Part shown: piece after piece, positions 32,382 to 62,015 of the stretch | Numbering within the stretch: position 1 is the first letter of the stretch | Layout: each line of letters starts with the position of its first letter | Assembly: GCA_035438745.1 (NCBI GenBank) | Contig: DAORIX010000001.1 | Coordinates: 3,075 to 67,074, forward strand | Reading direction: 5' to 3' | Origin: Minisyncoccota bacterium | GTDB lineage: Bacteria > Patescibacteriota > Minisyncoccia > Phycocordibacterales > UBA6065 | Length of the DNA stretch: 64,000 nt | The notes under the pieces: model-generated | Databases searched by the model: none | Told to the model about the DNA's origin: nothing | The model's input: only the letters and a program-made list of their open reading frames with translations | Position numbers and translations under genes: made by a program

Positions 32382-32411
32382 TTGACACCTTTACATAATG
32401 GGGAGTATTAT
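32382..32411 (+). promoter_or_regulatory. near-consensus sigma70-type promoter (TTGACA-N18-TATTAT) driving the HTH gene and probably the long plus-strand glycan operon
   Basis: TTGACA at 32382..32387 and TATTAT at 32406..32411. The ATG at 32422 is about 10 nt downstream of the -10 box, suggesting a leaderless or near-leaderless transcript. Confidence 0.45.
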
Positions 32412-32421
32412 AAGCATTGTC

Positions 32422-32670
32422 ATGGTAGAAGAAATAAAACCCAACGCCGTCTATACGACAGAGGAAACAAGACAAGTCCTCCGTATTAGTGACAGCACCA
32501 TTAAGAGACTCCTCAAAAAAGGACTCCTGCGTGCAAACAAAGTTGGAGGACAATACAGAATCATGGGAAAAGAAATTTTACGAGTGGTCTCCCCTGATCT
32601 CGAGAAAGAAGCCGTAAAGTCATACCTCTCTCTCAAGAAAAAAGTAATAAAAAAAATAAACAAATGGTAA
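32422..32670 (+). CDS. excisionase/MerR-like helix-turn-helix DNA-binding protein (HTH_17-type)
   Basis: [38 protein letters not shown] matches the excisionase-family HTH. Stop overlaps the gmd start. An alternative start at 32398 lies inside the promoter spacer. Confidence 0.6.
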
Positions 32671-33761
32671 AATCTAATCCTATGGCCAAAAAACAAAAAA
32701 CAAAAACTAAGAAAGCTCTCATTACCGGAATTACAGGCCAAGACGGTTCTTACCTTGCTGAACTTCTCCTTGAGAAAGGTTATGAAGTCTATGGACTCAT
32801 CAGACGCGCCTCAACATTCAATACCTCTAGAATAGATCACCTTTTCCAAGATCCCCACACAAAAAACAAAAAACTCATACTCTTGTATGGAGACCTCTCT
32901 GACTCGAGCAACCTCTCGCGAATTATTGAAAAAGTAAAGCCAGATGAAATCTACAACCTAGGCGCACAAAGCCATGTCCGCGTCTCTTTTGATATGCCTG
33001 AGTACACCGCTGATGTTGATGCGGTTGGCACATTGCGACTCCTTGATGCAATACGAGAAACAGGAGTAAAAACAAAATTCTACCAAGCATCATCCTCAGA
33101 AATGTATGGAAAAGTTATGGAGGTACCTCAGACAGAAACAACCCCCTTCTACCCCCGATCACCCTATGCAGTTGCAAAAGTATTTGCTTATTGGATTACA
33201 AAAAACTACCGAGAGGCGTACAACCTATTTGCAGTAAATGGAATTCTCTTTAACCACGAATCTCCTCGTCGAGGAAAAACTTTTGTAACGAAAAAAATCA
33301 CTCGCGGACTATCGCGCATCAAGCTTGGTATTGATGAAAAGATGTATCTCGGAAATCTCGACGCGAAGCGTGACTGGGGTTACACAAAAGACTATGTATA
33401 TGGAATGTGGCTCACCCTTCAACAAAAAAAACCGGATGACTACGTACTCGCCACAGGAGAAACACATTCTGTACGAGAGTTTATAGAAGAATCTGCGAAA
33501 TGCCTCGATATCGATCTCGTCTGGAAAGGAAAAGGAGTTGATGAAAAAGGAATTGATAAGAGAACAGGAAAAACAATCATAGAGATTGACCCTGCGTATT
33601 TTCGCCCAGCTGAAGTAGACCTCCTTATTGGAGATGCATCAAAAGCCAAAAAAGAACTGGGTTGGAAACCTACCGTTGATTTTAAAGGTCTCGTAAAAAT
33701 GATGTGTGAATACGACCTTGAGGAAGAAACTCAAAACAAACAAAATCTCGCACGAAAATAA
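32664..33761 (+). CDS. gmd: GDP-mannose 4,6-dehydratase
   Basis: [33 protein letters not shown]-terminus, catalytic SSSEMYG...Y..AK, GME-unrelated long loop; start 32664 or 32682. Confidence 0.9.
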
Positions 33762-33762: not shown

Positions 33763-34692
33763 ATGAATAAAAATTCAAAAATTTATATAGCCGGCCATTT
33801 AGGACTTGTAGGATCAGCTATTTTGAGAAAGCTCAATAAAGAAGGCTACACAAACCTCATTACAAAATCTCGTAAAGAGCTTGACCTTACTGATCAAAAA
33901 GCAGTGAAAGATTTTTTTGAAAAAACAAAGCCCGAATATGTATTTCTTGCCGCGGCAAAGGTGGGTGGAATTATGGCAAACAAAACCTACCCTGGAGAAT
34001 TTATTTCCGAAAATCTCGACATCCAAAATAATATAATAAAAAACTCCTACATCCACGGAGTAAAGAAACTGTTGTTTCTTGGAAGTTCGTGTATATACCC
34101 AAAACTAGCTACCCAGCCAATAAAGGAGGAGTATTTTATGACGGGTCCCCTTGAGCCAACAAATGAGGCGTATGCGATTGCAAAAATTGCAGGAATTTCA
34201 ATGTGCCAGTCATACCGAAAACAATATGGAGCTGATTTCATATCACTCATGCCGACAAATCTCTATGGACCGGGCGACAACTTCACGAACGAAAGAGGTC
34301 ATGTGATTCCGGCACTCATTAGAAAATTTCATGATGCAAAAGCCAAAAATCTTGACGAGATATCAGCATGGGGCACAGGATCAGCAAAACGAGAATTTTT
34401 ACACTCGGATGATTTAGCTGATGCGTGTGTGTTCCTCATGAAGAATTACTCCTCGGGAGATATTATAAACGTTGGTACAGGCGAAGACGTCACTATCAAA
34501 GAACTCACCGAAAAAATTAGCAAGATCGTTGGCTTTAAAGGAAAAATTGTCTGGGACACCACAAAACCAGACGGTGCTCCCCGAAGACTACTTGATGTAG
34601 AAAAACTTCACACCCTAGGTTGGAAACACCACATAGAACTCGAAAAAGGTCTTGAAGAAACCTATGAGTGGTTCAAAAAAAATGTCATCTAA
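33763..34692 (+). CDS. fcl: GDP-L-fucose synthase family (GDP-4-keto-6-deoxy-D-mannose 3,5-epimerase/4-reductase; Fcl/WcaG, or a ColC-type paralog)
   Basis: [19 protein letters not shown] Rossmann start, [18 protein letters not shown] blocks; start at MNKNSK (33763) abuts the gmd stop. Confidence 0.8.
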
Positions 34693-34696
34693 AAAA

Positions 34697-35911
34697 ATGA
34701 AAAAAGGTAAAAAAAATACAGCAGTACCCTACAAAGTACCCCTCATGAAAAATGCTTTTATTGAGGAAAAGAGCGTCAGGGCAAAACTCTCACAATTTGT
34801 TCTCACTGCCCCACGCCTCAGTATGGATTTACAATGCGCTCAGTTTGAAAAAACGTTCGCGAAAAAACAGGGTCGAAAATACGCGATTTTATTCAACAGC
34901 GGAGGAAGCGCAAACCTCGCAATGATACAAGCGCTCAAAAACTTAGGCGCACTCAAGGACAATGACAAAGTAGGCTTCTCTGCTGTTACCTGGTCAACAA
35001 ATGTTATGCCCATCCTACAAATGGGACTTGGTGCCGTTCCTATCGACTGTGACCCCACCACACTCAACTCAATGAGCCATTGTGCCTTACCCCGACTTGA
35101 ACAAGAAAAGTGTAAAGCCTTTTTTATAACCAACGTACTAGGTTTTTCTGGTGATCTCGATGTAATCGAAAAAGAATGTGCAAAAAAAGGAATTATAGTA
35201 CTCGAGGACAACTGTGAATCACTTGGCACCGTGCTCCATACAGGAAAGACGGGTAATTTTAGTCTTGCATCAAGTTTTTCTTTTTTTGTTGCCCACCATA
35301 TGTCAACAATTGAAGGAGGCATGGTGTGTACAGACGATCACGATTTTGCAGAAATGCTCAAAATAGTTCGAGCTAATGGTTGGGATAGAAATCTCCACCC
35401 AAAGAGACAAAAACACTGGCGCAAGAAACATGAAGTAGAATCTTCTTTTCACGCAAAATACACTTTTTATGACCTCGGCTTTAACTTACGTCCTACTGAA
35501 ATAACTGGTTTTATTGGACTCAATCAACTTCCCCACCTCGATAAAACTATCAAAATTCGTGAAAAGAATTTCAAAAAAATATACGCACAAATATTAAAAA
35601 ATGATGATTTTCTAAAAATCTCACACGATCACCTCAAAACCATTTCTGCTTTTGCAATACCTTTCATATGTAAAACACCGGAGCTCAGAAAAAAATATAT
35701 CAAAATATTCAACGATGCAGGAGTTGAGATTAGACCAATGATTGCTGGAAATATGCAAAAGCAACCATTCTCGAAAAAATACACGTCAAAAACATTTGAT
35801 CTTCCTGGTGCTGATGTATTGCACGACAATGCTTTTTATTGTGGAAATTGTCCCGACTACACGCCTGCGGAGATAGAAATCATTTTAAATTGTATAATAA
35901 AAGGAAAATAA
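34697..35911 (+). CDS. DegT/DnrJ/EryC1-family PLP enzyme with His replacing the Schiff-base Lys: ColD/E1-like sugar 3-dehydratase candidate
   Basis: Fold-type I aminotransferase blocks (FEKTFA..KYAILFNSGGSANL, GDLD..IVLEDNCESLG). Where the family has SFxxxK....GEGG the sequence reads SFFVAHHMSTIEGG. Confidence 0.6.
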   Translation: MKKGKKNTAVPYKVPLMKNAFIEEKSVRAKLSQFVLTAPRLSMDLQCAQFEKTFAKKQGRKYAILFNSGGSANLAMIQALKNLGALKDNDKVGFSAVTWSTNVMPILQMGLGAVPIDCDPTTLNSMSHCALPRLEQEKCKAFFITNVLGFSGDLDVIEKECAKKGIIVLEDNCESLGTVLHTGKTGNFSLASSFSFFVAHHMSTIEGGMVCTDDHDFAEMLKIVRANGWDRNLHPKRQKHWRKKHEVESSFHAKYTFYDLGFNLRPTEITGFIGLNQLPHLDKTIKIREKNFKKIYAQILKNDDFLKISHDHLKTISAFAIPFICKTPELRKKYIKIFNDAGVEIRPMIAGNMQKQPFSKKYTSKTFDLPGADVLHDNAFYCGNCPDYTPAEIEIILNCIIKGK

Positions 35912-35912: not shown

Positions 35913-36737
35913 ATGGAAACTCCCGTAACAATACTCCGCCCAAAAAAAACCATCACCCTAAACGACCTCAAAGAACTCTGGCGCTACCGTGAGCTTCTTT
36001 ATTTTTTTACATGGCGCGATCTCAAAGTTCGATATAAACAAACCCTTATTGGTGCACTGTGGGCTATACTTCAACCTCTCGTTACGATGGTCATCTTTAC
36101 TGTATTTTTTGGTAAGTTGGCACAAATGCCATCTGACGGAGTTCCGTATCCAATCTTTGTTTACGTCGGTCTCCTTTTCTGGCAATTTTTTTCGAGCGCT
36201 CTCTCAGAAACATCTAATGTTCTTATTTCAAACCAAGCAATCATAACCAAAGTTTACTTTCCTCGCCTCATCTTGCCGTTATCGTCAGTACTTACCAAAT
36301 TTGTTGATTTTGCAATTGCATCTCTCATCCTTATTGGAATGATGGTCTATTACGGATATACGCCCCACCTTCTAGGGATTTTCATCATTCCTCTCCTTCT
36401 CCTCATTACCTTCATGGCTGCTGTTGGTAGTGGTCTATGTTTAGCATCAGTAAACGTTAAGTACCGAGATGTTAGATATGCTCTGCCCTTTTTTATACAA
36501 ATACTCCTTTTCCTTACCCCAGTTATTTATCCCGCATCAATTGCAGGCAACTATTCATGGCTCCTGGCGCTTAATCCAATGACGGGGGTAATTCAATCTG
36601 CTCGAGCGGCTCTCCTCGGAACAACACCAATCAACTGGCTCCTTCTCGCTATTTCATCCTTGGCGTGTTTGTGTCTTCTTATTATTGGTGGTATCTATTT
36701 CAAAAAAATAGAACGCTATTTTGCAGATATTTTATAA
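35913..36737 (+). CDS. wzm: ABC-2 type polysaccharide export permease (Wzm/TagG/KpsM family)
   Basis: 274 aa, 6 TM, N-terminal RELLYFFTWRDLKVRYKQTLIGALWAILQP signature of Wzm permeases. Confidence 0.8.
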   Translation: METPVTILRPKKTITLNDLKELWRYRELLYFFTWRDLKVRYKQTLIGALWAILQPLVTMVIFTVFFGKLAQMPSDGVPYPIFVYVGLLFWQFFSSALSETSNVLISNQAIITKVYFPRLILPLSSVLTKFVDFAIASLILIGMMVYYGYTPHLLGIFIIPLLLLITFMAAVGSGLCLASVNVKYRDVRYALPFFIQILLFLTPVIYPASIAGNYSWLLALNPMTGVIQSARAALLGTTPINWLLLAISSLACLCLLIIGGIYFKKIERYFADIL

Positions 36738-36741
36738 AAAA

Positions 36742-38001
36742 ATGGAACCCATAATTGAAGTAAAAAATGTCGGTAAAAAATACAACATAAAGCACTACCA
36801 AGGTGGCTATGTTGCGTTGCGTGATGTGATCATGAATATAGTCAAAAACCCTTTTCGCTTTGCAAAAGAAAAAGCAAAAGCAGTCACAGGAATAGGAACA
36901 AAGGAAGAGTTCTGGGCGCTCAAAGAAGCAAGCTTTAACATTTTCCAAGGAGAAGTGGTTGGAATCATCGGAAGAAATGGGGCCGGAAAATCAACTCTCC
37001 TCAAAATACTGACTGGCATTACACCTCCTACAACAGGAGAAATAAAAATGCGCGGTAGAGTCGCTTCCCTTCTTGAAGTCGGTACGGGGTTCCATCCAGA
37101 ACTTACTGGCCGAGAAAACATATTCCTCAACGGTGCAATTCTCGGAATGAAAAAAAGTGAAATCGCAAAAAACTTTGACTCGATTGTTGCGTTTGCTGAA
37201 ATAGAAAAATTCCTCGATACCCCAGTAAAATACTACTCAAGTGGAATGTATGTCCGTCTCGCCTTTTCAGTAGCCGCGCACATGGAACCAGACATACTCC
37301 TCGTGGATGAAGTACTCGCTGTGGGTGATGCAGAATTCCAAAAAAAGTGCCTTGGAAAAATGGAAGAGGTTACCAAGAAACAAGGCCGTACCATACTCTT
37401 TGTGAGTCACAACATGGCAGCAATTCAAAATCTCTGTAAAAAATGCATCCTCTTAGAAAAAGGAAAAATCAAAGCGGTTGGTGACACAGAAGACATTGTA
37501 AACCTCTACCTCCACAATTCCGAGTCAGAGGCAACAGAAAAAAAATGGGAGGGAGACAAGCGTCCAGGAAATGATGTTGTACGACTAAACCATGTTCGTC
37601 TTGTTGATGAAAATAAAGAAACCACGAGCTTTGTCTACTCAAATAAAAAATTTGGATTAGAAATATCCTACGAGGTTCTCAAATCTGGTTTTGCACCTCT
37701 TCCCAATGTTCACTTTTTCACAAATAAAGGGGAATATGCATTTATTAGCCACGCTGACGTAAAAGAAGAAAATGATAAAGTAGGAAAACACACGAAAACT
37801 GTGTGGGTCCCCGGAAATCTCCTTAATGAAGGTACCTACTCAATCGGTGTTGCTCTTTCAACTATGATTCCGCTCAACATACACCTCTATGAAAGAGAGC
37901 TTATTGTGTTCCAAGTGCTTGAGGATATTCACAGTGCAAAGAAACACGACTTCAATGTGCGTATACCGGGAGTTGTCCGCCCTCGACTAGTATGGGAATA
38001 A
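36742..38001 (+). CDS. wzt: polysaccharide ABC exporter ATP-binding protein with C-terminal carbohydrate-binding (Wzt_C-like) domain
   Basis: Walker A GRNGAGKST, signature YSSGM, Walker B LLVDEVLAVGD; an extra about 170 aa beta-rich C-terminal domain as in Wzt. Confidence 0.8.
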   Translation: MEPIIEVKNVGKKYNIKHYQGGYVALRDVIMNIVKNPFRFAKEKAKAVTGIGTKEEFWALKEASFNIFQGEVVGIIGRNGAGKSTLLKILTGITPPTTGEIKMRGRVASLLEVGTGFHPELTGRENIFLNGAILGMKKSEIAKNFDSIVAFAEIEKFLDTPVKYYSSGMYVRLAFSVAAHMEPDILLVDEVLAVGDAEFQKKCLGKMEEVTKKQGRTILFVSHNMAAIQNLCKKCILLEKGKIKAVGDTEDIVNLYLHNSESEATEKKWEGDKRPGNDVVRLNHVRLVDENKETTSFVYSNKKFGLEISYEVLKSGFAPLPNVHFFTNKGEYAFISHADVKEENDKVGKHTKTVWVPGNLLNEGTYSIGVALSTMIPLNIHLYERELIVFQVLEDIHSAKKHDFNVRIPGVVRPRLVWE

Positions 38002-38010
38002 CAAAAATCA

Positions 38011-38667
38011 ATGCTCAAAAAAATATACTATTCGATAAGAAACAAGATCCTAAAATATAAAATGGGATCTTACCCTGTGTGGAATATCTACGAGGGGCAC
38101 TTTAAAACGACGTACCGTTCTATACCGATGTTAAAATGCCCTTTTGACTATGTTATGTATCAAATGATTGTGTCAAAGATACAACCAGATCTCATTATTG
38201 AAATCGGAACAAACGTGGGAGGAACAACCTTATACCTGGCTGACATCCTCAACACCCTTGGCAAAGGAGAGATCCACACAATAGATATCGATGATCGAGT
38301 TAATCCCCTAGCACGATCTCATCCACGCATAAAATGCTTTAACGGCGGATGGAAAAACTACGATCTTTCAAATACAAAAAAATTCTCAAAGATACTCGTC
38401 ATTGATGATGCGTCGCATCAATTTAAAGACACATTAGAAGCAATGGAGAAGTTTTCGAACGTCGTGTCTATTGATTCTTATTTAATCATAGAGGACGGTA
38501 TTGTTACTCAACTCAAAAGAGACAAACAACTTGATGGAGGACCTCTTCGGGCAATAGAAAAATTTCTTGAAACAAACAACAACTTCCTCGTTGATGACTC
38601 TTACTGCAATATGTTTGGTAAAAACGCAACCTTCAACACGAAAGGTTACCTAAAAAGAGTTAAATAA
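38011..38667 (+). CDS. CmcI-family (cephalosporin hydroxylase-like) SAM-dependent sugar O-methyltransferase
   Basis: LIIEIGTNVGGTTLYLADIL SAM-binding block and overall CmcI/rhamnosyl-O-MT layout. Confidence 0.7.
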   Translation: MLKKIYYSIRNKILKYKMGSYPVWNIYEGHFKTTYRSIPMLKCPFDYVMYQMIVSKIQPDLIIEIGTNVGGTTLYLADILNTLGKGEIHTIDIDDRVNPLARSHPRIKCFNGGWKNYDLSNTKKFSKILVIDDASHQFKDTLEAMEKFSNVVSIDSYLIIEDGIVTQLKRDKQLDGGPLRAIEKFLETNNNFLVDDSYCNMFGKNATFNTKGYLKRVK

Positions 38668-50764: not shown

Positions 50765-50771
50765 AGAAACT

Positions 50772-51590
50772 CTAGTGATAAAAAGGTGTGGTTTGAGAAA
50801 TATAATCAATCTGAAGACCCCTCTTAACCGCTACGAAATTTGTAAGAGTAAAGCGCTCTTGATCGGGGAAATACTCGACCCTCTCAAGAGAACGGGATTT
50901 CAAACGATACATATCGTACCCATACTGCTCAAAAAATCTCAAGAAGTCACGTAGAAAAAATCGAGACTCCAAAGTTGCCCCAGAAAATTCATACTGTACC
51001 ATGTCGACCATACCTTGTTTGAACATATTTTCTGCGCCTTTCAAAACAAAAAACTCATAACCCTCAACATCCACCTTCAAGAAATCTACATGGCGAATGT
51101 TGTGATCCTTTACATACTCATCGAGAGTAGTCACCTGAACCATAAGTGCTTTTTCTTTTTTATCTTGTTCGTGAATATCAAACAAAGAATTAAAAACCGT
51201 CTTTGAATGACGAAATAGTTGCATCTGGGTCTTTTTCTCACCCACTGCACAATTATTTAAAATGGCTCTTTTTTTAAAGTCCTTCGTATTCGTTTGTAAT
51301 TGATCAAACGCTCTCACGTCTGGTTCAAAAGCATGAACAACCACATCAGGATTGCTCGAGAGAATTTTTCTAGAGTAATCCCCTATATTCGCACCGACAT
51401 CAAAAACCACCTTTAGTTTTCCCTGTAATTTCTCGAGAAGCCAGTATTCACCGTTTGTCTCGCGGTCAAAAGCATTATCCCCATAACAAAAATCAATGTA
51501 TTTACTACAAAACAAAAAAAGCAGTCGAGAGTATCGTGGGTTATTGCGATTAATAAAAATCTTTACGAGGTTTTTTTTAAAAAAATTCAT
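50772..51590 (-). CDS. FkbM-family methyltransferase
   Basis: VFDVGANIGDYS SAM-binding block and FkbM-domain layout. Confidence 0.7.
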   Translation of the reverse strand: MNFFKKNLVKIFINRNNPRYSRLLFLFCSKYIDFCYGDNAFDRETNGEYWLLEKLQGKLKVVFDVGANIGDYSRKILSSNPDVVVHAFEPDVRAFDQLQTNTKDFKKRAILNNCAVGEKKTQMQLFRHSKTVFNSLFDIHEQDKKEKALMVQVTTLDEYVKDHNIRHVDFLKVDVEGYEFFVLKGAENMFKQGMVDMVQYEFSGATLESRFFLRDFLRFFEQYGYDMYRLKSRSLERVEYFPDQERFTLTNFVAVKRGLQIDYISQTTPFYH

Positions 51591-56381: not shown

Positions 56382-56994
56382 ACGAGTAACCAAGAGGATA
56401 CCGCTCACCAACACGAGGCCTTAACTTTAAAAAGAGAGCGTCCGTAGCATAATAGAAAGGAAACAAGAAAACACGCACCAATCGAGGAAACGAGAGAACA
56501 ATAGTATTAAAATTTACGGAAAAAGGACCCCTCCCTACAGTGACGATTTGTACCTGAGAAAAGCCCGCCGACTTAAAAATCCTTTCGAGAGCTTCCTTTG
56601 TATATCTAAAATAGTCATGCGGATCAGGATGGTACTGTATAAGAAAAGGTACAAATCCAACAAGCGTTCCACCCTTCTTCAAAATACGATGAACTTCTGC
56701 AACTAAAAAAGCATGGTTATAGACGTGTTCCAAAACATTTGCCAACACCACACTATCAGCATATCCGTCAGCGTAAGGTAGTTTATCTTTTTCAAAGTCC
56801 ACCTTGGAAAGTAGTCCGTCTACGATTTCAACGGACGTGACAGACTCTTGTTTAAGATAGTCAAAATAATCAGGCTTACGGGCACCGCCAACATCAACAA
56901 CTTTTCCTGAAACAGAAAATTGTTTGAAACTTTGATTCATGAGTATCCTCAAAAGTGATTGACCTTGGTATACCTTACGCAGTGTAAAAAACAT
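56365..56994 (-). CDS. class I SAM-dependent methyltransferase (Methyltransf_11-like)
   Basis: VVDVGGARKP SAM motif I and VLEHV..LKKGGTLV post-I/II blocks; true start may be 56940. Confidence 0.7.
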   Translation of the reverse strand: MFFTLRKVYQGQSLLRILMNQSFKQFSVSGKVVDVGGARKPDYFDYLKQESVTSVEIVDGLLSKVDFEKDKLPYADGYADSVVLANVLEHVYNHAFLVAEVHRILKKGGTLVGFVPFLIQYHPDPHDYFRYTKEALERIFKSAGFSQVQIVTVGRGPFSVNFNTIVLSFPRLVRVFLFPFYYATDALFLKLRPRVGERYPLGYSFILKK

Positions 56995-57009: not shown

Positions 57010-58041
57010 TTAATGAATGACCTGCACAAGTCTATCTCTAAGCTTGTCCAAACTATGCTGCTTGAGCACAACATTTCGCAAAATCGCTCCTTGAGCAACC
57101 CGAGAAGGTTTGTCCATGAGGATAATCCTCTCAAGTTTAGAAGCGAGCTCAGCAACATCACCTTCGGTGAAAATAAAACCATCGTCAATGAGTCCGCGTA
57201 AATTTTCATTAGAAGCAAGAACAAGACTCTCACACGCCATGGCTTCAAAAATAGTCTTATCGTACATCCCCGATGAAGATAAGTTTACGAACACCTCATG
57301 AGCGTTGTACACCCCGGGAGTTTGATCGTTTGGGATGCCGGGCAAAAAAGTGACCTTATCGGAAACACCCTCCTTGTGCGCCATGTATCTCAAGGAATCT
57401 GCATACTCTCGATCTTTTGGTAGAGGATCTCCAATAATAGTCGCATAAAAAGGCACTTTTTTTGTAGCAAGGATACCGAGCGCTCGTATTAAAACATCAG
57501 GTTTCTTAACCGGAGCAATACGAGCTAGAAATAAAATCGAGTGAGGTTTTCTGTCTTTTCTATACGGCGCAAAAATAGATGTATCTACACCAACAGGCAT
57601 AAGTATGGTTTTTTTAAATTTTGCCGTATATGAGTATTTTGATGTACAAAAAATATTCTTACAGAAAAGCGAAACAATATTAGTAAACTCACTACCAGAG
57701 TGATGATTTCTCCACATGTATATTGGCTTCCGTAAGAGTTTCCACAAAAAACCACCCAGAAGGACATACTCCTCGTTCATGTGAACAAATACAGCGTCAT
57801 ACTCTTTTCTTTTTGAAAAAATATACGTATAGAAATTTTTTAAATACTTCCACTTTGACTGTCCTCCTTCTTTACCCAAAGAAAGTACAGAAACATTGTG
57901 CGGTAAATCATACTCTCCTTTTTCGAGACATATAACCGTAATCGCTTTATACACTGAAGCAAAATCAAAAATCCAACGGTGAAAAAAACCCAGCACAGGA
58001 TCATTTTTATTAACCTTTTGAGTTATGATGAGTAATTTCAT
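57010..58041 (-). CDS. GT4 glycosyltransferase
   Basis: Glycos_transf_1 domain (SGMYDKTIFEAMACESLVLASN). Confidence 0.75.
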   Translation of the reverse strand: MKLLIITQKVNKNDPVLGFFHRWIFDFASVYKAITVICLEKGEYDLPHNVSVLSLGKEGGQSKWKYLKNFYTYIFSKRKEYDAVFVHMNEEYVLLGGFLWKLLRKPIYMWRNHHSGSEFTNIVSLFCKNIFCTSKYSYTAKFKKTILMPVGVDTSIFAPYRKDRKPHSILFLARIAPVKKPDVLIRALGILATKKVPFYATIIGDPLPKDREYADSLRYMAHKEGVSDKVTFLPGIPNDQTPGVYNAHEVFVNLSSSGMYDKTIFEAMACESLVLASNENLRGLIDDGFIFTEGDVAELASKLERIILMDKPSRVAQGAILRNVVLKQHSLDKLRDRLVQVIH

Positions 58042-58475
58042 ATCGGTTTTCTAGTGGAAACATTTTCTGGAAATATAATATAGCGATAAGCAAAAAAACT
58101 TACCCCCGCCATGATTCCGATAGTAAGCACTTGTGCAAAAACATACCACACGTGAAGTATCTCCACGAAAAAATACAAAAACCCCGTAGTAGCAACCATA
58201 CTCACAGCGTACAACACGCTATAGAAAAAAAGTTGTTTATGCACCGTTGCTGTATTTGTATCACGAAAAGTAAATTTTTTCTGAAGCAAAAAACGCACAA
58301 TAAATGATGTTGTGAGCGCAATGACTGCTGATGCTAGATAATAAACATGAAAATATTCTGTGAGCACAAAAAGCAAACCAATATCAAGAAACGATGAAAA
58401 ACCTCCCGAAAAAATATAACGAACAACAAGAGTGTCCGTAGCTAGAGCGATTATGTTTTTAAAAAAAGAAATCAT
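58038..58475 (-). CDS. GtrA-family small membrane protein (polysaccharide synthesis/flippase-associated)
   Basis: 145 aa, 4 TM, N-terminal RYIFSGGFSSFLDIGLLFVLTE block typical of GtrA. Confidence 0.7.
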   Translation of the reverse strand: MISFFKNIIALATDTLVVRYIFSGGFSSFLDIGLLFVLTEYFHVYYLASAVIALTTSFIVRFLLQKKFTFRDTNTATVHKQLFFYSVLYAVSMVATTGFLYFFVEILHVWYVFAQVLTIGIMAGVSFFAYRYIIFPENVSTRKPI

Positions 58476-58487: not shown

Positions 58488-59618
58488 TTATACCAAAAGA
58501 GACTCTTTGTATTTTTGCAAATACACTTCCCGACTGTTTATCAAGGCAAAAGAGTCCGTCATTCGATAATTTTGAGGCTCTTTAAGGGCAGCAAGTACAT
58601 GATGCGCAAGACACTCCGCATCGCGAGGTGGACACACCACCCCTCCTGAAAGTAACTCGGACGCAACCCCAACATCAGTAGAAACAATCGCTGTTCCTGC
58701 CACACCCGCTTCAACCAACGTCATGCCATACCCCTCATACAGAGAACTGAGCAAAAAGACATCTGCTGTTTTATACAGAGAATACAAATCATCACGGTTC
58801 ATCCACGGCACGTATACTACAGAAGAATGTATACCTTTTTTCTCACAAAAACGAGAAAGAAAATCTCGCTCCGGACCATCACCAACAATAACGAGACCTG
58901 CGCGTGGATAGTGCGCTAAAACCTTTATAAAGGCATGTAACGCTGTATGTATGTCTTTTTCATGAGTAAGTCGCGAGGCCATTAAAACAATGTGGTCAAA
59001 CTGCGGATACATCGCTTTTAAATTTGTGCCCACGGGGGCATCTTTTATTTTTTGAATATCTACGAATATAGGTAACACAGAAACGGTGCATGTTTTATTT
59101 AACAAACCACTCTTCTCAAGAGATATTTTTATTCTCCGCGAAACAACTCTAACTGACGCAGCACGCGCAAAAACGAAACGCGCAAGCGCTACACGAACAC
59201 GATTAAGAACGTTTTCTTTCCTAAAATATCCGCTCAAAAAATCTGTGTGAACCTGAACATTCAGAGGCAGGGTGTATTTTTGTGCGAGTATCTTTCCTAC
59301 GATGCCTGTTTCAAATGGATCTTGGGTTGTAATAATCGTTATACCGGAGTCACCCATTTTAGATGTAATGACCCGTGAAGCAATTCGCAAAGCATCAAAA
59401 CAATAAAAATATCTCGAGTATGAGCACGTTTGATATGCGCGCACTCGATCAGACAAAATCTCTACAGACGTGCGACCGTGAGAACAATGCACTTTTTTTG
59501 TAAATACAACAATATGTAGTTCATCAAAAAGTGAGCCGTACTCAATCATACGCCTGCGAACAGGACTACCCTGTTCAAAAATCTTTGCATCTGATGAAAT
59601 CATGAGAACCCGCATCAT
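58488..59618 (-). CDS. GT4 glycosyltransferase
   Basis: YEGYGMTLVEAGVAGTAIVSTDVG donor-binding block. Confidence 0.75.
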   Translation of the reverse strand: MMRVLMISSDAKIFEQGSPVRRRMIEYGSLFDELHIVVFTKKVHCSHGRTSVEILSDRVRAYQTCSYSRYFYCFDALRIASRVITSKMGDSGITIITTQDPFETGIVGKILAQKYTLPLNVQVHTDFLSGYFRKENVLNRVRVALARFVFARAASVRVVSRRIKISLEKSGLLNKTCTVSVLPIFVDIQKIKDAPVGTNLKAMYPQFDHIVLMASRLTHEKDIHTALHAFIKVLAHYPRAGLVIVGDGPERDFLSRFCEKKGIHSSVVYVPWMNRDDLYSLYKTADVFLLSSLYEGYGMTLVEAGVAGTAIVSTDVGVASELLSGGVVCPPRDAECLAHHVLAALKEPQNYRMTDSFALINSREVYLQKYKESLLV

Positions 59619-60727
59619 AGTGTAGAAATGAACTGCGCAAATTCATTAAGCATACGCTCGTCCGTAAACCCTTTCACTCTCTCCCGTGCCTTACGAACCA
59701 AGGACTGACTGAGAGATGGATTTCGTACAAGTCGAAATATATGCTCGCTCAAGGCACCCGCATCATTATAAGAAACGAGTACGCCCGTATGATCATTCTC
59801 TATAATTTCTGAGTTTCCCCCGACACGTGTAGTAATAATAGGAACCCCCAAAGACATAGTTTCCAAGATCTGGTGCGAGAAACCTTCGTACTGAGTATTT
59901 AAAACAAAAATATCAGAGGCTTTGATGTATTCAAACAATACCTGCTGATCAAGTCTACCCAAAAACACAACGGAGTCGCCCAATCCCTGGCTTGAAACCT
60001 TAAGAGCAAGTTCATCTTTAAGTGGACCGTCCCCAGCAATAAAAAGCATCGCATCGGGAATCTCTTTTTTTACCGAAACAAACACATCAATTAATGTAGA
60101 AAAACCCTTCCATGGAACAAGTCTGCCTACGCTCATCAGGATTGTTCCGTGAAGTTTATATTTTTTACGGATATTTGTTTTTGTGCCTTTTAAATCCTGA
60201 GAATGAAAACCATTATAAATAACACGAATTTTACTTTCTTTGACACCCCAATTGGCAATAATACCCTTCAAATAAGAACTAGGGGTGACAATAGCGTGAG
60301 CCCCATCAGCTACATATTTTTGAATTTTTTTAAGGGTCCTGACCTGAGGAGAATATTTCTGATACTTTGTCGAAAACACATCAAGAGTATCCTCGACCCC
60401 AAAACGCTGAACACCCTGCTCCCACGCATAATCACCTACAATTTTTAAAACAAATTTCTTCTGTAATATCTGAGAAGCAATAAGAGCAGGTAGGCCGACA
60501 GATACAGGATCTTGAGCATAAACAACATCTACGCCTTGTCCTTTTTTAAGAAGCTCTATAAAAAAAAGAATATGCCGAATAATTTTCGGTTTTGATATGA
60601 AATCACCAAAATTAACAATATCAACTTGAAATCCCCTCTTTGGAAGCTCATCGTAAAGAAGCTTGGAATACGTTGCGGGGCCGCCAATCTGAGGAGGATA
60701 AATACCCGTAGCTACAAGAATACGCAT
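59615..60727 (-). CDS. GT4 glycosyltransferase
   Basis: MRILVATGIYPPQIGGPATY N-terminus and EGFSHQILETMSLGVPIITTRVGGN block; start set at 60727. Confidence 0.75.
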   Translation of the reverse strand: MRILVATGIYPPQIGGPATYSKLLYDELPKRGFQVDIVNFGDFISKPKIIRHILFFIELLKKGQGVDVVYAQDPVSVGLPALIASQILQKKFVLKIVGDYAWEQGVQRFGVEDTLDVFSTKYQKYSPQVRTLKKIQKYVADGAHAIVTPSSYLKGIIANWGVKESKIRVIYNGFHSQDLKGTKTNIRKKYKLHGTILMSVGRLVPWKGFSTLIDVFVSVKKEIPDAMLFIAGDGPLKDELALKVSSQGLGDSVVFLGRLDQQVLFEYIKASDIFVLNTQYEGFSHQILETMSLGVPIITTRVGGNSEIIENDHTGVLVSYNDAGALSEHIFRLVRNPSLSQSLVRKARERVKGFTDERMLNEFAQFISTL

Positions 60728-60788
60728 ATGTGTAAGTATAAAATAAAAAACCGATAACACGAAACGTGTTCGCCTGATACACTTTCTC

Positions 60789-62015
60789 TTATTTTTCGCC
60801 GAAAGACTTATCGAAAACACCTTCCCTCATCTGCTCAACAACAACACTCCAGTCATATCGATCAAGCACCATGTGCATAGCATTCTCTACAATCTCATTT
60901 CGCAATAAAACATCGCGCATATACATTTCAACTTTTCGAGCAATATCTTTTGGATCATGAACATCACACAACAAACCTGTTTCTTTATTCACCAAAAAAT
61001 CAACAATACCTCCCACAGGCGTAGCGATCACAGGAATACCCGCAGCCATTGCTTCAATAAAAGAATTTCCAAAACCTTCGGATAGAGAAGGGCGCACAAA
61101 TACATCAGAAATTTTTAAGTACTTTGGCATTTCCTTGTGTGATACATACCCTAGAAAATGCACTCGTGACATGACCCCTAAGTCTTGTGCTTGTTTTTTG
61201 AGCGAAGCCTCTTCGTATCCAGTACCCAAAACAAGGAGCTTAACATACGGTGGCAAATGGACGAGGGATGCAACAATGTCCCCTACCGCATTTTTTACCA
61301 CAAGCCGAGACGTAGTAATAATAAAAATATCATGCGGTTCTTTTCCTAAAGACACGCGTACGTTTTCAAGCTCACCCTCATCAAATGATTGTCTGAAATG
61401 AGAGGTGTCGACACCGTTAGGCACGACAACTACCGGACACGTTGCTCCTTGAGATGATGCAAACGAAGCAAGGTAACGCGATATCGCTTGAATGCAATCC
61501 GCTTTCTTAAAAATCATTTTAAAAAGCGGACGAACAAAACGCACTCTTTTTTCTATGTATTCAAACGGATCACCCTCCTGAAGAGTAAGAATAAACGGCG
61601 TAGACATATTAAAGAGCTTAAAAAACAGAGCCCCGAATCCTGAATAATTCGCCATCATTGCCCACACAGCGTCATAGTGTTTTTTGCGATTCAAGCCATG
61701 AGCAACATACGCAGACAAAAACGGATAGAGATATTTATTGAGATGCAAATACCACGGTAAAGAATCCGCAGAAGCACGTTGATTTCCCACAAAACCAATG
61801 CGATACACATTCACATTGCCTATGCGTTCAAAACGAGGTAGTTTTTTATCAATACGCAAAGCCACCAAGTCAAACTCAATGTCTTGGGAGGATATCCTGT
61901 CAGTGATTTCTTTAATAGCAATTTCTGCCCCGCCAATAAAGCGAGGGTAGTAGACGAAAGAAAAGATGAGTATTTTCTTAGGCTTAATCGTGTCTGTTCC
62001 GGGTATAGTAGTCAT
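60789..62015 (-). CDS. GT4 glycosyltransferase
   Basis: SEGFGNSFIEAMAAGIPVIATPVGG block. Confidence 0.75.
   Translation of the reverse strand: MTTIPGTDTIKPKKILIFSFVYYPRFIGGAEIAIKEITDRISSQDIEFDLVALRIDKKLPRFERIGNVNVYRIGFVGNQRASADSLPWYLHLNKYLYPFLSAYVAHGLNRKKHYDAVWAMMANYSGFGALFFKLFNMSTPFILTLQEGDPFEYIEKRVRFVRPLFKMIFKKADCIQAISRYLASFASSQGATCPVVVVPNGVDTSHFRQSFDEGELENVRVSLGKEPHDIFIITTSRLVVKNAVGDIVASLVHLPPYVKLLVLGTGYEEASLKKQAQDLGVMSRVHFLGYVSHKEMPKYLKISDVFVRPSLSEGFGNSFIEAMAAGIPVIATPVGGIVDFLVNKETGLLCDVHDPKDIARKVEMYMRDVLLRNEIVENAMHMVLDRYDWSVVVEQMREGVFDKSFGEK

What the first reader, a model, noticed from the sequence alone, without database searches (positions are those of the whole stretch)
32382..62015. 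30-kb ABC-transporter-dependent glycan locus for a heavily methylated, L-sugar-rich surface polymer
A near-consensus promoter is followed by a 15.5-kb co-directional operon. It encodes gmd-fcl, a ColD-like dehydratase, Wzm/Wzt, a CmcI methyltransferase, GT2 and GT4 enzymes, two GT11 enzymes and an AsnB-like amidotransferase. Two further blocks encode GME, a GT2-methyltransferase fusion, FkbM, a GT-C enzyme, GtrA and eight more GT4 enzymes. No Wzx/Wzy-type flippase or polymerase is present inside the locus. The Wzt protein carries a C-terminal carbohydrate-binding domain. In characterised Wzm/Wzt systems that domain recognises a methylated chain terminus, and the gene immediately downstream of wzt here is a CmcI methyltransferase. 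Five methyltransferases, three GDP-L-sugar-modifying enzymes and two fucosyltransferase-family GTs together predict an O-methylated polymer containing 6-deoxy and/or 3,6-dideoxy L-hexoses. For a reduced-genome organism this is a large investment.
Basis: partly seen in the sequence, partly recalled or inferred. Interest (0 to 1): 0.75.

Follow-up and report, generated by a model that had tools for sequence, protein, structure and literature searches.

The report
ABC-exported surface glycan locus in Saccharibacteria
A tiny-genome Saccharibacteria (CPR) bacterium spends about 30 kb on a well-known type of sugar-polymer factory: build inside, cap, export through an ABC pump, attach outside. The same layout recurs across related ultra-small bacteria, and the pump's cap-reading domain and the neighbouring methyltransferase have been swapped together in a close relative.

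Summary
Pfam, NCBIfam and PDB searches confirm almost every gene call: Gmd, Fcl, a true ColD (His at the catalytic position), Wzm, Wzt with a C-terminal domain, a CmcI methyltransferase, GME, five methyltransferase domains, 16 glycosyltransferases, GtrA and a GT-C enzyme. Corrections are small: blocks 2-3 hold seven GT4 genes, not eight, and an HTH_17 gene heads the operon. A WaaL-fold Wzy_C+TPR protein sits just outside the stated coordinates. The modelled Wzt C-terminal domain matches only Wzt carbohydrate-binding domains at the top of a PDB fold search. The organism is a Saccharibacteria (CPR) bacterium. In a relative with about 90% DNA identity, only the segment encoding the Wzt C-terminal domain and the methyltransferase is replaced. 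Among 27 Patescibacteria loci, CmcI follows wzt only where the binding domain is of this window's type. The whole architecture, blocks 2-3 included, is conserved in Paceibacterota. It works like O-antigen and S-layer-glycan ABC pathways: a new member of a known kind, undescribed for CPR in the searched literature. The glycan's chemistry, acceptor and initiating enzyme remain inferred.

The parts
29254..31455 (-). Wzy_C (O-antigen-ligase family) membrane domain plus C-terminal TPR domain, 733 aa. Probable ligase or oligosaccharyltransferase for the exported glycan.
   Evidence: Pfam Wzy_C 4.9e-21 plus TPR families. About 10 hydrophobic segments. AF2 pLDDT 89.2. WaaL 7tpg_B is the only membrane protein among the 50 listed fold hits (E 1.4e-5, TM 0.64). 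Full-length relatives at 45-50% identity are widespread in Patescibacteria. It lies divergent to wzm/wzt operons in many loci.
31557..32327 (-). 256-aa ORF of unknown function, divergent from the operon
   Evidence: No Pfam, NCBIfam or PDB sequence hit. 96% identical in L082 and 31% in L003. Partly deleted in L004.
32333..32411 (.). Back-to-back promoter-like sites: TTGACA-18-TATTAT on + (32382-32411) and TTGACT-17-TATAAT on - (32361-32333)
   Evidence: Hexamers are conserved in L004 while the spacer varies.
32422..32670 (+). HTH_17 / excisionase-family DNA-binding protein, 82 aa. First gene of the operon and a candidate regulator.
   Evidence: Pfam HTH_17 1.5e-9. TIGR01764 33.8 bits against a cut-off of 28.8. 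Conserved at this position in many Patescibacteria loci.
32664..33761 (+). Gmd, GDP-mannose 4,6-dehydratase
   Evidence: PF16363 5.6e-155. TIGR01472 583.5 bits against a cut-off of 415.
33763..34692 (+). Fcl-type GDP-4-keto-6-deoxymannose 3,5-epimerase/4-reductase. May also serve as ColC. The ORF opens at 33706; the start called on the public contig maps to 33763.
   Evidence: PDB 1bsv 2.7e-112. NF047922 495 bits against a cut-off of 500. Gene call.
34664..35911 (+). ColD, GDP-4-keto-6-deoxymannose 3-dehydratase
   Evidence: PDB ColD 2gms 8.7e-60 against perosamine synthase 4.6e-22. His aligned to ColD His188; the H188N and H188K mutant entries mark the column.
35913..36737 (+). Wzm, ABC-2 permease
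   Evidence: PF01061 4.4e-18. Five hydrophobic segments. 65-83% identical in the Patescibacteria-type loci tabulated (57% in L078).
36721..38001 (+). Wzt: ABC ATPase (aa 1 to about 233) plus C-terminal carbohydrate-binding domain (aa about 264-426, nt 37510-37998)
   Evidence: ABC_tran 2.5e-22 and Wzt_C 7e-8. AF2 model and fold search of the C-terminal domain.
37418..38640 (.). Exchangeable cassette: end of the Wzt ATPase domain, the binding domain and cmcI
   Evidence: Flanks are 89-92% identical in DNA to L004, but this segment has no megablast-level match. Wzt aa 1-220 are 95-100% identical, and identity falls to about 35% after aa 233.
38011..38667 (+). CmcI / rhamnosyl O-methyltransferase family methyltransferase. 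Candidate chain-terminating cap enzyme.
   Evidence: PF04989 6.4e-32. Adjacent to wzt in all 6 loci with this binding-domain type whose DNA could be read.
38669..39538 (+). GT2 glycosyltransferase (a)
   Evidence: PF00535 1.4e-26
39535..40419 (+). GT11 (alpha-1,2-fucosyltransferase family) glycosyltransferase (a)
   Evidence: PF01531 3.7e-36
40424..42175 (+). AsnB-type glutamine-dependent amidotransferase
   Evidence: Asn_synthase 3.4e-82 and GATase_7 2e-46. TIGR01536 477 bits against a cut-off of 267. Conserved with the next two genes in many loci.
42168..43319 (+). GT4 glycosyltransferase (a)
   Evidence: PF00534 2.2e-11. Start as called on the public contig.
43325..44173 (+). GT2 glycosyltransferase (b)
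   Evidence: PF00535 1.3e-29
44184..45395 (+). GT4 glycosyltransferase (b)
   Evidence: PF00534 1.3e-28
45398..46237 (+). GT2 glycosyltransferase (c)
   Evidence: PF00535 9.8e-26
46243..47007 (+). DUF268 / Methyltransf_11 methyltransferase
   Evidence: PF03269 2.3e-9 and PF08241 2.9e-5. 67% identical in L089.
47012..47932 (+). GT11-like glycosyltransferase (b), weak match. Last gene of the operon.
   Evidence: PF01531 8.2e-7, 29 bits against a cut-off of 23.9. 52% identical in L089 and L090.
48102..49121 (-). GME, GDP-mannose 3,5-epimerase
   Evidence: PDB 2c59 2.8e-101, next family 4.5e-30
49208..50809 (-). Fusion of a polyprenyl-phosphate glycosyl synthase-type GT2 domain with a class-I methyltransferase, plus one C-terminal hydrophobic segment
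   Evidence: PF00535 2.1e-35 and PF08241 1.2e-12. Best PDB hits are DPMS 5mlz 2.9e-21, ArnC 1.8e-16 and GtrB 9.4e-12. 75-77% identical in Paceibacterota.
50772..51590 (-). FkbM-family methyltransferase
   Evidence: PF05050 6.9e-21
51587..52966 (-). GT-C (PMT_2 / GT39-like) membrane glycosyltransferase
   Evidence: PF13231 3.4e-7. About 10 hydrophobic segments. Relatives at 35-59% identity lie on the same contigs as wzt and Wzy_C-TPR genes.
52967..54106 (-). GT4 glycosyltransferase (c)
   Evidence: PF00534 8.6e-21. 56-57% identical in L089 and L090.
54119..55207 (+). GT4 glycosyltransferase (d)
   Evidence: PF00534 1.1e-14. 51-54% identical in L089 and L090.
55209..56381 (+). GT4 glycosyltransferase (e), in the variable centre of block 3
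   Evidence: PF13439 1.2e-20 and PF00534 1.8e-18
56365..56994 (-). Methyltransf_11/23 methyltransferase
   Evidence: PF08241 1.5e-9
57010..58041 (-). GT4 glycosyltransferase (f)
   Evidence: PF00534 9.8e-19. 51-58% identical in L089 and L090.
58038..58475 (-). GtrA-family small membrane protein, a candidate flippase for polyprenyl-phosphate sugar
   Evidence: PF04138 1.2e-17. 50-54% identical in L089 and L090.
58488..59618 (-). GT4 glycosyltransferase (g)
   Evidence: PF00534 2.2e-31
59615..60820 (-). GT4 glycosyltransferase (h)
   Evidence: PF00534 2.8e-39
60789..62015 (-). GT4 glycosyltransferase (i)
   Evidence: PF00534 4.8e-36

Best explanation
This is the surface-glycan assembly locus of a Saccharibacteria (CPR/Patescibacteria) bacterium. 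It operates by the ABC-transporter-dependent route.

**Proposed sequence.**
1. GDP-mannose is converted to GDP-L-fucose by Gmd and Fcl. ColD with the Fcl-type reductase gives GDP-L-colitose. GME gives GDP-L-galactose and/or GDP-L-gulose. The enzyme identities are shown; the products follow from knowledge of these families.
2. Cytoplasmic GT2, GT4 and GT11 enzymes build the chain on a polyprenyl carrier (inferred). An AsnB-type enzyme amidates a carboxyl group of unknown identity (inferred).
3. The CmcI methyltransferase, encoded directly after wzt, O-methylates the non-reducing end and so terminates the chain (inferred).
4. The C-terminal carbohydrate-binding domain of Wzt recognises that cap, and Wzm/Wzt export the polymer. 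The fold is shown and the coupling is supported by co-variation. Binding itself is not shown.
5. Outside the membrane, the WaaL-fold Wzy_C+TPR protein encoded divergently upstream transfers the glycan to an acceptor. The acceptor is most likely a surface protein, as in Gram-positive S-layer glycosylation, but it has not been identified.
6. The second and third blocks supply a polyprenyl-phosphate sugar route: a Dpm1/ArnC/GtrB-type GT2 fused to a methyltransferase, GtrA and a GT-C enzyme, plus six conserved GT4 enzymes. This route either decorates the polymer outside the cell or builds its conserved anchor (inferred).

The locus has a conserved frame across Patescibacteria. Its variable inserts behave like serotype-determining cassettes.
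For: - **Gene families:**
- **ColD:** best PDB family, with the diagnostic His.
- **GME and Fcl:** 2.8e-101 and 2.7e-112 to solved enzymes.
- **Wzt C-terminal domain:** pLDDT 86.8; the top 17 PDB fold hits are all Wzt carbohydrate-binding domains, with E about 2e-7 to 1e-4 and TM about 0.5-0.7.
- **Cassette exchange:** L004 is 89-92% identical in DNA on both sides. Its Wzt ATPase domain is 93% identical, the binding domain 31% and CmcI 56%, and an extra class-I methyltransferase is inserted.
- **Survey of 27 Patescibacteria-type loci:** a methyltransferase gene directly follows wzt in 16. All 6 loci with CmcI there have binding domains 47-65% identical to one another and at most 39% identical to the rest, while ATPase domains stay near 80% throughout. 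In a permutation of neighbour labels, 0 of 5000 shuffles reached the observed match. This is not corrected for relatedness.
- **Ligase:** Wzy_C 75.5 bits. WaaL is the only membrane-protein fold hit. The gene is syntenic with wzm/wzt in Saccharibacteria and Paceibacterota.
- **Polyprenyl-phosphate sugar route:** best PDB hits for the GT2 domain are DPMS, ArnC and GtrB, alongside GtrA and PMT_2.
- **Blocks 2-3 belong to the same unit.** The same gene order occurs in L089 and L090 at 43-77% identity. In L089 it lies on the same contig as a wzt operon, in the same convergent arrangement.
- **Mechanistic precedent:** cap-dependent export (PMC9445017) and S-layer glycan clusters with wzm/wzt, a methyl cap, a Wzy_C O-oligosaccharyltransferase with TPR and an asparagine synthase homologue (PMC2943079).
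Against: - No biochemical data exist for this organism. Glycan composition, the methyl cap and its recognition are all inferred.
- No initiating phosphoglycosyltransferase (WecA, WbaP or PglC type) and no GDP-mannose pyrophosphorylase occur in the 64-kb window.
- The Pfam Wzt_C score is only just above its cut-off (33 against 30.4).
- One relative with a similar binding domain (the P0037 contig) has a 328-aa gene without a Pfam hit after wzt, not CmcI.
- For the other methyltransferase families (FkbM, TylF) the binding domains do not cluster by neighbour.
- CmcI could methylate internal residues rather than the terminus.
- Only one Fcl-type gene is present, so fucose and colitose cannot be told apart.
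- No S-layer or other acceptor gene was identified.
- Fold similarity to WaaL does not separate a lipid acceptor from a protein acceptor.
Confidence: 0.7

Rival explanations
1. The 30 kb holds two independent pathways that merely sit side by side. The 15.5-kb operon makes an ABC-exported polymer. Blocks 2-3 (six conserved GT4, GtrA, the Dpm1-like GT2-methyltransferase and GT-C) make a separate product, such as a membrane glycolipid or lipoglycan, or protein O-mannosylation.
For: - Blocks 2-3 are transcribed separately and use a different chemistry: polyprenyl-phosphate sugar plus GT-C.
- They are far more conserved than the variable part of the operon. GT2-MT is 75-77% identical and the GT4 genes 43-58% identical between Saccharibacteria and Paceibacterota.
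- L090 shows the block on a contig where no wzt gene is seen within the 14 kb read.
Against: - The block lies next to the wzt operon in the same convergent arrangement in two distant lineages: the window, and L087 with L089 on one contig.
- GT-C and GtrA relatives also flank wzt directly in L003.
- GT-C relatives share contigs with wzt and Wzy_C-TPR genes in several further assemblies, judged by matching contig lengths.
- Both parts share the low G+C of about 0.395.
Confidence: 0.3
2. CmcI is not a cap enzyme. It methylates internal sugars or another substrate, and the Wzt C-terminal domain recognises some other feature or only tethers the polymer.
For: - The locus has four other methyltransferase domains that could supply a cap.
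- One relative with a similar binding domain lacks CmcI next to wzt.
- In L004, a CmcI at 56% identity persists beside a very different binding domain.
- Binding domains next to FkbM or TylF genes do not cluster by neighbour.
Against: - The recombination tract in L004 spans exactly the binding domain plus the methyltransferase gene or genes.
- All 6 CmcI-adjacent loci share one binding-domain type.
- A methyltransferase follows wzt in 16 of 27 loci.
- Characterised binding domains of this fold bind methylated or otherwise modified termini (PMC9445017; PMC2943079).
Confidence: 0.2
3. The transporter is a TagG/TagH-type exporter for a teichoic-acid-like polyol-phosphate polymer.
For: The best NCBIfam hits for Wzt are TagH models: 212.7 bits to NF010065 and 186.4 bits to NF010066. 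The organism is presumed monoderm.
Against: - Both TagH scores are far below their cut-offs of 538 and 320.
- No TagF/TagB polymerase, cytidylyltransferase or polyol-phosphate gene is present in the locus.
- The C-terminal domain has the Wzt carbohydrate-binding fold.
- The locus is dominated by GDP-sugar enzymes and Leloir-type glycosyltransferases.
Confidence: 0.04

Closest known systems
S-layer glycoprotein glycan (slg) clusters of Geobacillus stearothermophilus NRS 2004/3a and Paenibacillus alvei CCM 2051T (PMC2943079)
   Same: - A monoderm setting, with wzm/wzt and tightly packed or overlapping genes.
- A lower G+C than the genome.
- An O-methyl cap made by a methyltransferase encoded next to wzt (the WsaE domain).
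- A Wzy_C-domain O-oligosaccharyltransferase; WsfB carries a C-terminal TPR region.
- An asparagine synthase homologue (WsfA), and a polyprenyl-phosphate sugar step for a branch sugar.
   Different: - Those clusters use dTDP-rhamnose genes, whereas this locus uses GDP-fucose, colitose and L-galactose enzymes.
- Their cap methyltransferase is a domain of a glycosyltransferase, not a free CmcI protein.
- They encode a WbaP-type initiating enzyme and lie near the S-layer gene; neither was found here.
- This locus is about twice as large, with 16 glycosyltransferases.
- Whether the acceptor here is a protein was not tested.
O-antigen Wzm/Wzt systems with a cap-binding domain: E. coli O9a/O8 (WbdD), Raoultella terrigena O12, Aquifex aeolicus (PMC9445017, PMC3482155)
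   Same: - An ABC-2 permease and an ATPase with a C-terminal beta-sandwich domain of the same fold.
- A terminating modification enzyme encoded in the cluster.
- No Wzx or Wzy.
- A WaaL-fold ligase.
   Different: - Those polymers are ligated to lipid A-core in diderm bacteria. Saccharibacteria are not known to make LPS (own knowledge).
- WbdD is a large kinase-methyltransferase with a coiled-coil ruler. Here the candidate is a 218-aa CmcI-family protein.
- Sequence identity of the binding domain to the solved ones is only 10-21%.
TET (transport, elongation, termination) operon of the Pseudomonas syringae common polysaccharide antigen locus (PMC7820976)
   Same: wzm, wzt with a C-terminal binding domain and an O-methyltransferase form a unit. 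Alleles of this unit are exchanged between close relatives by recombination, which changes the surface polymer.
   Different: - In P. syringae the exchanged unit also includes the elongating glycosyltransferase and the whole wzt gene.
- Here the tract starts inside wzt, at the end of the ATPase domain, and ends at the stop codon of cmcI.
- The host there is a diderm making LPS.
Colitose pathway of E. coli O55/O111 and Yersinia pseudotuberculosis (Gmd, ColD, ColC)
   Same: gmd, an Fcl/ColC-type reductase and colD lie in tandem. ColD carries the active-site His.
   Different: - No separate fcl and colC genes exist here, so one enzyme would have to serve both pathways or only one.
- Those O-antigens are, from my own knowledge, Wzx/Wzy-dependent, whereas this locus uses Wzm/Wzt.
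Three-component GtrA/GtrB/GtrC-type extracytoplasmic glycosylation, including ArnC/ArnT and Dpm1/PMT
   Same: A GT2 enzyme most like DPMS, ArnC and GtrB, a GtrA-family protein and a multi-pass GT-C enzyme.
   Different: - The GT2 is fused to a methyltransferase domain and has one, not two or more, predicted C-terminal hydrophobic segments.
- The three genes are not adjacent; they are embedded among six conserved GT4 genes.

Membership tests
ABC-transporter-dependent (Wzm/Wzt) glycan export with a cap-binding Wzt | Adjacent ABC-2 permease (Wzm) and ABC ATPase (Wzt) | tested here: met
   PF01061 66 bits and PF00005 80.4 bits; the genes overlap by 17 nt
ABC-transporter-dependent (Wzm/Wzt) glycan export with a cap-binding Wzt | C-terminal extension of Wzt with the Wzt carbohydrate-binding beta-sandwich fold | tested here: met
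   Pfam Wzt_C 33 bits (cut-off 30.4). AF2 pLDDT 86.8. Top 17 Foldseek PDB hits are Wzt binding domains (6o14, 8dky, 2r5o, 5hno).
ABC-transporter-dependent (Wzm/Wzt) glycan export with a cap-binding Wzt | A chain-terminating modification enzyme encoded in the cluster and matched to the binding domain | tested here: inconclusive
   CmcI lies directly after wzt. The binding domain and CmcI are exchanged together in L004, and CmcI adjacency tracks the binding-domain type. Enzyme activity and the position of the methyl group are unknown.
ABC-transporter-dependent (Wzm/Wzt) glycan export with a cap-binding Wzt | Binding of the capped glycan terminus by the domain | not testable with these tools
   Needs purified domain and glycan, for example calorimetry or pull-down as in PMC9445017
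ABC-transporter-dependent (Wzm/Wzt) glycan export with a cap-binding Wzt | No Wzx flippase or Wzy polymerase; polymerisation by cytoplasmic glycosyltransferases | tested here: met
   No Polysacc_synt or Wzy family occurs between 32382 and 62015. The neighbouring Wzy_C protein has a WaaL-like fold. MurJ at 9055-10734 is the lipid II flippase family.
ABC-transporter-dependent (Wzm/Wzt) glycan export with a cap-binding Wzt | Initiating polyprenyl-phosphate sugar-1-phosphate transferase (WecA or WbaP type) | tested here: not met
   None in the 64-kb window. In known systems it is often encoded elsewhere, so this does not exclude membership.
ColD (GDP-4-keto-6-deoxy-D-mannose 3-dehydratase) | DegT/aspartate-aminotransferase fold, closest to ColD rather than to sugar aminotransferases | tested here: met
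   2gms 8.7e-60; E1 dehydrase 1.1e-33; perosamine synthase 4.6e-22
ColD (GDP-4-keto-6-deoxy-D-mannose 3-dehydratase) | His in place of the Schiff-base Lys (His188 of E. coli ColD) | tested here: met
   Query 'ffvaHHmst' aligns with 'sfysHHiat'. The H188N (3b8x) and H188K (2r0t) entries mark the column.
ColD (GDP-4-keto-6-deoxy-D-mannose 3-dehydratase) | A dedicated ColC reductase/epimerase to finish colitose | tested here: inconclusive
   Only one Fcl/ColC-type gene is present. It scores 495 against a cut-off of 500 for GDP-fucose synthase.
GDP-mannose 3,5-epimerase (GME) | Extended SDR closest to characterised GME enzymes | tested here: met
   2c59 2.8e-101 over residues 5-322; next family (UXS) 4.5e-30
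Gram-positive S-layer glycan (slg) clusters | wzm/wzt with a Wzy_C-domain oligosaccharyltransferase (with TPR) | tested here: met
   described for WsfB in PMC2943079
Gram-positive S-layer glycan (slg) clusters | A glycosylated S-layer protein as acceptor, encoded nearby | tested here: not met
   No S-layer-like gene was recognised in the window. A gene elsewhere in the genome cannot be excluded.
GtrA/GtrB/GT-C extracytoplasmic glycosylation | Polyprenyl-phosphate sugar synthase, small flippase-like protein and GT-C transferase | tested here: met
   GT2 domain closest to DPMS, ArnC and GtrB. GtrA PF04138 64.7 bits. PMT_2 31.1 bits with about 10 hydrophobic segments.
Teichoic acid export (TagG/TagH) | TagH equivalog score and polyol-phosphate polymerase genes | tested here: not met
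   TagH models score 212.7 against 538 and 186.4 against 320. No TagF/TagB/TagD families are present.

The most novel reading that the evidence does not exclude
Patescibacteria may carry a phylum-wide, LPS-like two-part surface glycoconjugate.

- The strongly conserved block (six GT4 enzymes, GtrA, GT-C and the Dpm1-like GT2-methyltransferase, up to 77% identical between Saccharibacteria and Paceibacterota) would build a membrane-anchored 'core' glycolipid.
- The conserved WaaL-fold Wzy_C+TPR enzyme would ligate onto it a hypervariable, methyl-capped polymer exported by Wzm/Wzt. That polymer would be an 'O-antigen' in bacteria without an outer membrane.
- Binding-domain plus methyltransferase cassettes would be shuffled between close relatives, setting serotype-like diversity. 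That diversity could govern host attachment and phage susceptibility of these episymbionts.
Probability: 0.15. Interest if true: 0.8.

Novelty: new member of a known kind. Interest (0 to 1): 0.5.

Why it matters
Saccharibacteria and other CPR bacteria live attached to host cells and have genomes of about 1 Mb, from my own knowledge, yet their surface chemistry is almost unknown.

- **Scale of investment.** One lineage devotes about 30 kb to a capped, exported glycan. That would be roughly 3% of a genome of the size typical for the group.
- **Conservation.** The frame SecA-MurB-Wzy_C/TPR | HTH-wzm-wzt-...-AsnB-GT4-GT2 | GT-C/GtrA/GT4 block is shared by distant Patescibacteria.
- **Local hypervariability.** The locus varies most at the cap-recognition module. 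This is the pattern expected for a surface antigen under diversifying selection from phage, host recognition or immunity.

The locus gives concrete targets for the genetic systems now available for Saccharibacteria: wzt, cmcI, the Wzy_C+TPR gene and GT2-MT. No paper in the searched library links Patescibacteria or Saccharibacteria with Wzm/Wzt.

Tried and rejected
- **Metagenome scan.** A scan with the binding domain alone returned one near-identical locus (L082), because the peptide patterns were too specific. The wider survey therefore used contig look-ups for Wzt relatives instead.
- **PDB sequence searches.** Searches for CmcI and for the 256-aa ORF found nothing useful.
- **Perosamine synthase or another aminotransferase reading of the DegT gene.** Rejected: ColD scores 38 orders of magnitude better, and the Lys is replaced by His.
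- **UDP-sugar epimerase or UXS reading of the 48102-49121 gene.** Rejected in favour of GME.
- **TagGH teichoic acid exporter.** Rejected.
- **Recent tandem duplication of the glycosyltransferases.** Rejected: the 16 enzymes are at most 34% identical to one another.
- **Promoter as statistically significant.** Rejected on counts (3 sites against 2.3 expected), but kept as plausible on position and conservation.
- **General rule that binding-domain type follows the family of the downstream methyltransferase.** This holds clearly only for the CmcI group and one TylF pair, not for FkbM.
- **Literature searches.** Searches for Saccharibacteria or Patescibacteria with Wzt, Wzm or O-antigen found only general remarks on glycosyltransferases and phage-borne sugar genes.

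Full report
**Observation**

The + strand operon runs from 32422 to 47932, with genes overlapping or at most 12 nt apart. In order it encodes:
- Gmd, Fcl and a DegT-family protein;
- Wzm, then Wzt with a Wzt_C hit;
- a CmcI-family methyltransferase;
- GT2, GT11, AsnB, GT4, GT2, GT4 and GT2;
- a DUF268/MT11 methyltransferase and a weak GT11.

The remaining 14 kb, on both strands, encodes:
- GME, a GT2-methyltransferase fusion and FkbM;
- a PMT_2 GT-C enzyme and GtrA;

That makes five methyltransferase domains and 16 glycosyltransferases. None of the glycosyltransferases is more than 34% identical to another, so they are not recent duplicates. No Wzx or Wzy family lies inside the coordinates. 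G+C is 0.395 in both parts of the locus against 0.43 upstream.

The promoter-like site at 32382 is real, with 11 of 12 matches. Matches this good are not enriched in the window: 3 were seen against 2.3 expected. However, two of the three sit back-to-back in the 95-nt divergent gap at the head of the operon. Their hexamers are kept in a relative with about 90% identity while the spacer changes.

**Enzyme identities**

- **ColD.** The DegT protein is a ColD. ColD structures score 8.7e-60, the CDP-sugar 3-dehydrase E1 1.1e-33 and perosamine synthase 4.6e-22. The alignment puts His at the position of ColD His188; the H188N and H188K mutant entries mark that column.
- **GME.** The SDR at 48102-49121 is a GDP-mannose 3,5-epimerase (2.8e-101; next family 4.5e-30).
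- **Fcl and Gmd.** Fcl matches E. coli GDP-fucose synthase at 2.7e-112 and narrowly misses the NCBIfam equivalog cut-off (495 against 500). Gmd passes its own cut-off (583 against 415).

Only one Fcl/ColC-type gene is present, so the locus can be predicted to make L-fucose, L-colitose or both. GME adds L-galactose and/or L-gulose. These products are inferred from what the families are known to do.

**The transporter and its cap module**

Residues 255-426 of Wzt were modelled from 51 sequences and gave pLDDT 86.8. A Foldseek search of the PDB returned only Wzt carbohydrate-binding domains in the first 17 places. These were from A. aeolicus (including the entry with bound 3-O-methyl-mannose), E. 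coli O9a and R. terrigena O12.

Stronger support came from comparison. A Candidatus Saccharibacteria MAG contig (L004) is 89-92% identical in DNA to window 26503-37511 and 38602-46234, but nothing aligns between those points.

At protein level:
- Wzt residues 1-220 are 95-100% identical;
- identity falls to about 35% from residue 233 onward;
- the ATPase domain is 93% identical and the binding domain 31%;
- CmcI is 56% identical;
- DNA identity returns at the cmcI stop codon.

L004 has a different binding domain, an extra class-I methyltransferase and then a CmcI. So the cap-reading domain and the neighbouring methyltransferase genes were exchanged as one cassette.

I then surveyed 27 Patescibacteria-type loci (Wzt ATPase domain at least 70% identical) for the gene directly after wzt:

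| Gene after wzt | Loci |
|---|---|
| CmcI methyltransferase | 6 |
| FkbM methyltransferase | 4 |
| TylF methyltransferase | 3 |
| Class-I methyltransferase | 2 |
| DUF268 methyltransferase | 1 |
| Glycosyltransferase | 5 |
| Other or unknown | 6 |

A methyltransferase therefore follows wzt in 16 of 27 loci.

The six CmcI loci have binding domains 47-65% identical to one another and at most 39% identical to all the others. ATPase domains stay near 80% throughout, and each CmcI locus has another CmcI locus as its nearest binding-domain relative.

The link is not general:
- FkbM-associated domains are heterogeneous.
- One relative with a similar domain (the P0037 contig) has an unannotated gene instead of CmcI.
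- The survey is not corrected for shared ancestry.

**Surroundings**

The flanks are housekeeping genes (TsaD, a class-I aminoacyl-tRNA synthetase, LepA, MurJ, class II RNR, GatB, Obg, enolase, iPGM, SecA, MurB), plus RNase P RNA and two tRNAs.

The organism is a Saccharibacteria member. SecA and the Wzy_C+TPR protein are 97-98% identical to those of L004. The closest other Wzt proteins come from Paceibacterota, Parcubacteria and Saccharibacteria MAGs.

Directly upstream and divergent lies a 733-aa protein with a Wzy_C domain (75.5 bits) and C-terminal TPR repeats.
- It belongs to a very large Patescibacteria family that keeps 45-50% identity over its full length.
- The model has pLDDT 89.2.
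- Its membrane domain matches the WaaL O-antigen ligase (7tpg, E 1.4e-5, TM 0.64). That is the only membrane protein among the 50 listed fold hits; the rest are TPR proteins.
- The gene lies in the same position next to wzm/wzt operons in many loci, often preceded by SecA and MurB.

In an ABC-dependent pathway a polymerase is not needed, so a ligase or oligosaccharyltransferase role is the natural reading. This is an inference.

**Blocks 2 and 3**

- The GT2 domain of the GT2-methyltransferase fusion is most like polyprenyl-phosphate sugar synthases: DPMS 2.9e-21, ArnC 1.8e-16 and GtrB 9.4e-12.
- Together with GtrA and the roughly 10-segment GT-C protein, this is the standard three-part system for adding sugars outside the membrane.
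- Relatives of the GT-C protein lie on the same contigs as wzt and Wzy_C+TPR genes in several assemblies.

Two of these neighbourhoods were read (L089 and L090). The conserved order is three GT4, GtrA and a GT4, then a variable insert, then a GT4, GT-C, sometimes FkbM, and GT2-MT. Identity to the window is 43-77%.

In L089 the block lies on the same Paceibacterota contig as a wzt operon (L087), in the same convergent arrangement as in the window. The 30 kb is therefore an old, conserved unit rather than a chance cluster.

The GT2-MT fusion, at 75-77% identity, is more conserved than SecA (73-74%).

**Mechanism**

The best-supported account has six steps:
1. Supply of GDP-L-sugars.
2. Assembly on a lipid carrier by cytoplasmic glycosyltransferases, with an AsnB-type amidation.
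3. Termination by O-methylation, with CmcI as the candidate.
4. Recognition of the cap by the Wzt C-terminal domain, and export.
5. Transfer to an acceptor by the WaaL-fold Wzy_C+TPR protein.
6. Either extracellular decoration or anchor synthesis by the GtrA/GT-C/GT4 block.

Shown here:
- the family or fold of each component;
- the domain-level cassette exchange;
- the synteny.

Inferred:
- every chemical product;
- the position of the methyl group;
- binding of the cap;
- the acceptor.

Missing from the window:
- an initiating phosphoglycosyltransferase;
- a GDP-mannose pyrophosphorylase;
- any recognisable acceptor gene.

**Comparison with known systems**

- **Closest overall.** The closest match is the Gram-positive S-layer glycan clusters. 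They combine wzm/wzt, a methyl cap made next to wzt, a Wzy_C oligosaccharyltransferase with TPR, an asparagine synthase homologue and low G+C (PMC2943079).
- **Cap recognition.** The principle is that of E. coli O9a/O8 and A. aeolicus O-antigens (PMC9445017).
- **Cassette exchange.** Exchange of a transporter plus methyltransferase unit between close relatives is known from the Pseudomonas syringae TET operon (PMC7820976).

The system is therefore a new member of a known kind. What is new is the host group, for which no paper in the searched library mentions Wzm or Wzt. Also new are the conserved CPR-wide frame and the breakpoint at the domain boundary.

**Verdict**

Interest is moderate at 0.5. 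The machinery is familiar, but it exposes a conserved and locally hypervariable surface-glycan system in a poorly understood group, and it gives direct experimental handles.

Noticed in passing
window 32422-32670 (+): An 82-aa HTH_17/excisionase-family protein heads the glycan operon. It is conserved in that position in many Patescibacteria wzm/wzt loci at 67-100% identity, which suggests a dedicated regulator rather than a mobile-element remnant.
   Followed up: partly
window 31557-32327 (-): A 256-aa ORF between the Wzy_C+TPR gene and the operon has no Pfam, NCBIfam or PDB sequence match. It is 96% identical in L082, 31% in L003 and partly deleted in L004. By eye it has GT-A-like motifs; this was not tested.
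   Followed up: partly
window 10741-13107 (-), next to MurJ at 9055-10734: A second large membrane protein with C-terminal TPR repeats. Its N-terminus is weakly similar to the Wzy_C+TPR protein (26% over 140 aa, E 3e-4), so it may be a distant paralogue linked to cell-wall assembly.
   Followed up: partly
window 62155-63993 (-): A TraG/VirD4/HerA-like ATPase borders the locus. A 44% identical homologue also lies near the wzt locus in L020.
   Followed up: no
window 49208-50809 (-); L089 11415-12974; L090 12197-13774: The GT2-methyltransferase fusion is 75-77% identical between Saccharibacteria and Paceibacterota. That is more conserved than SecA (73-74%) and suggests an essential, conserved product.
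   Followed up: partly
L040 (DATJQC010000007.1), 54-6389: A 7-kb contig binned as 'Candidatus Nanoarchaeia archaeon' carries HTH-wzm-wzt-GME at 48-73% protein identity to the window. This is either a mis-binned CPR contig or transfer between CPR and DPANN.
   Followed up: no
L004 14440-15483: The close relative has an Acyl_transf_3 (O-acyltransferase) gene inserted between GT11 and AsnB that the window lacks. This is a second difference in predicted glycan decoration.
   Followed up: partly
window 54106-54119 and 56365-56381: Two GT4 genes diverge with only 12 nt between their start codons, so their promoters must lie inside coding sequence. A GT4 gene and a methyltransferase gene converge and overlap by 17 nt.
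   Followed up: no
window 13228-13584 (-), 5745-5818 (-), 6179-6251 (-): RNase P RNA class A (116 bits), tRNA-Phe(GAA) and tRNA-Arg(CCT). Ordinary housekeeping RNAs.
   Followed up: no
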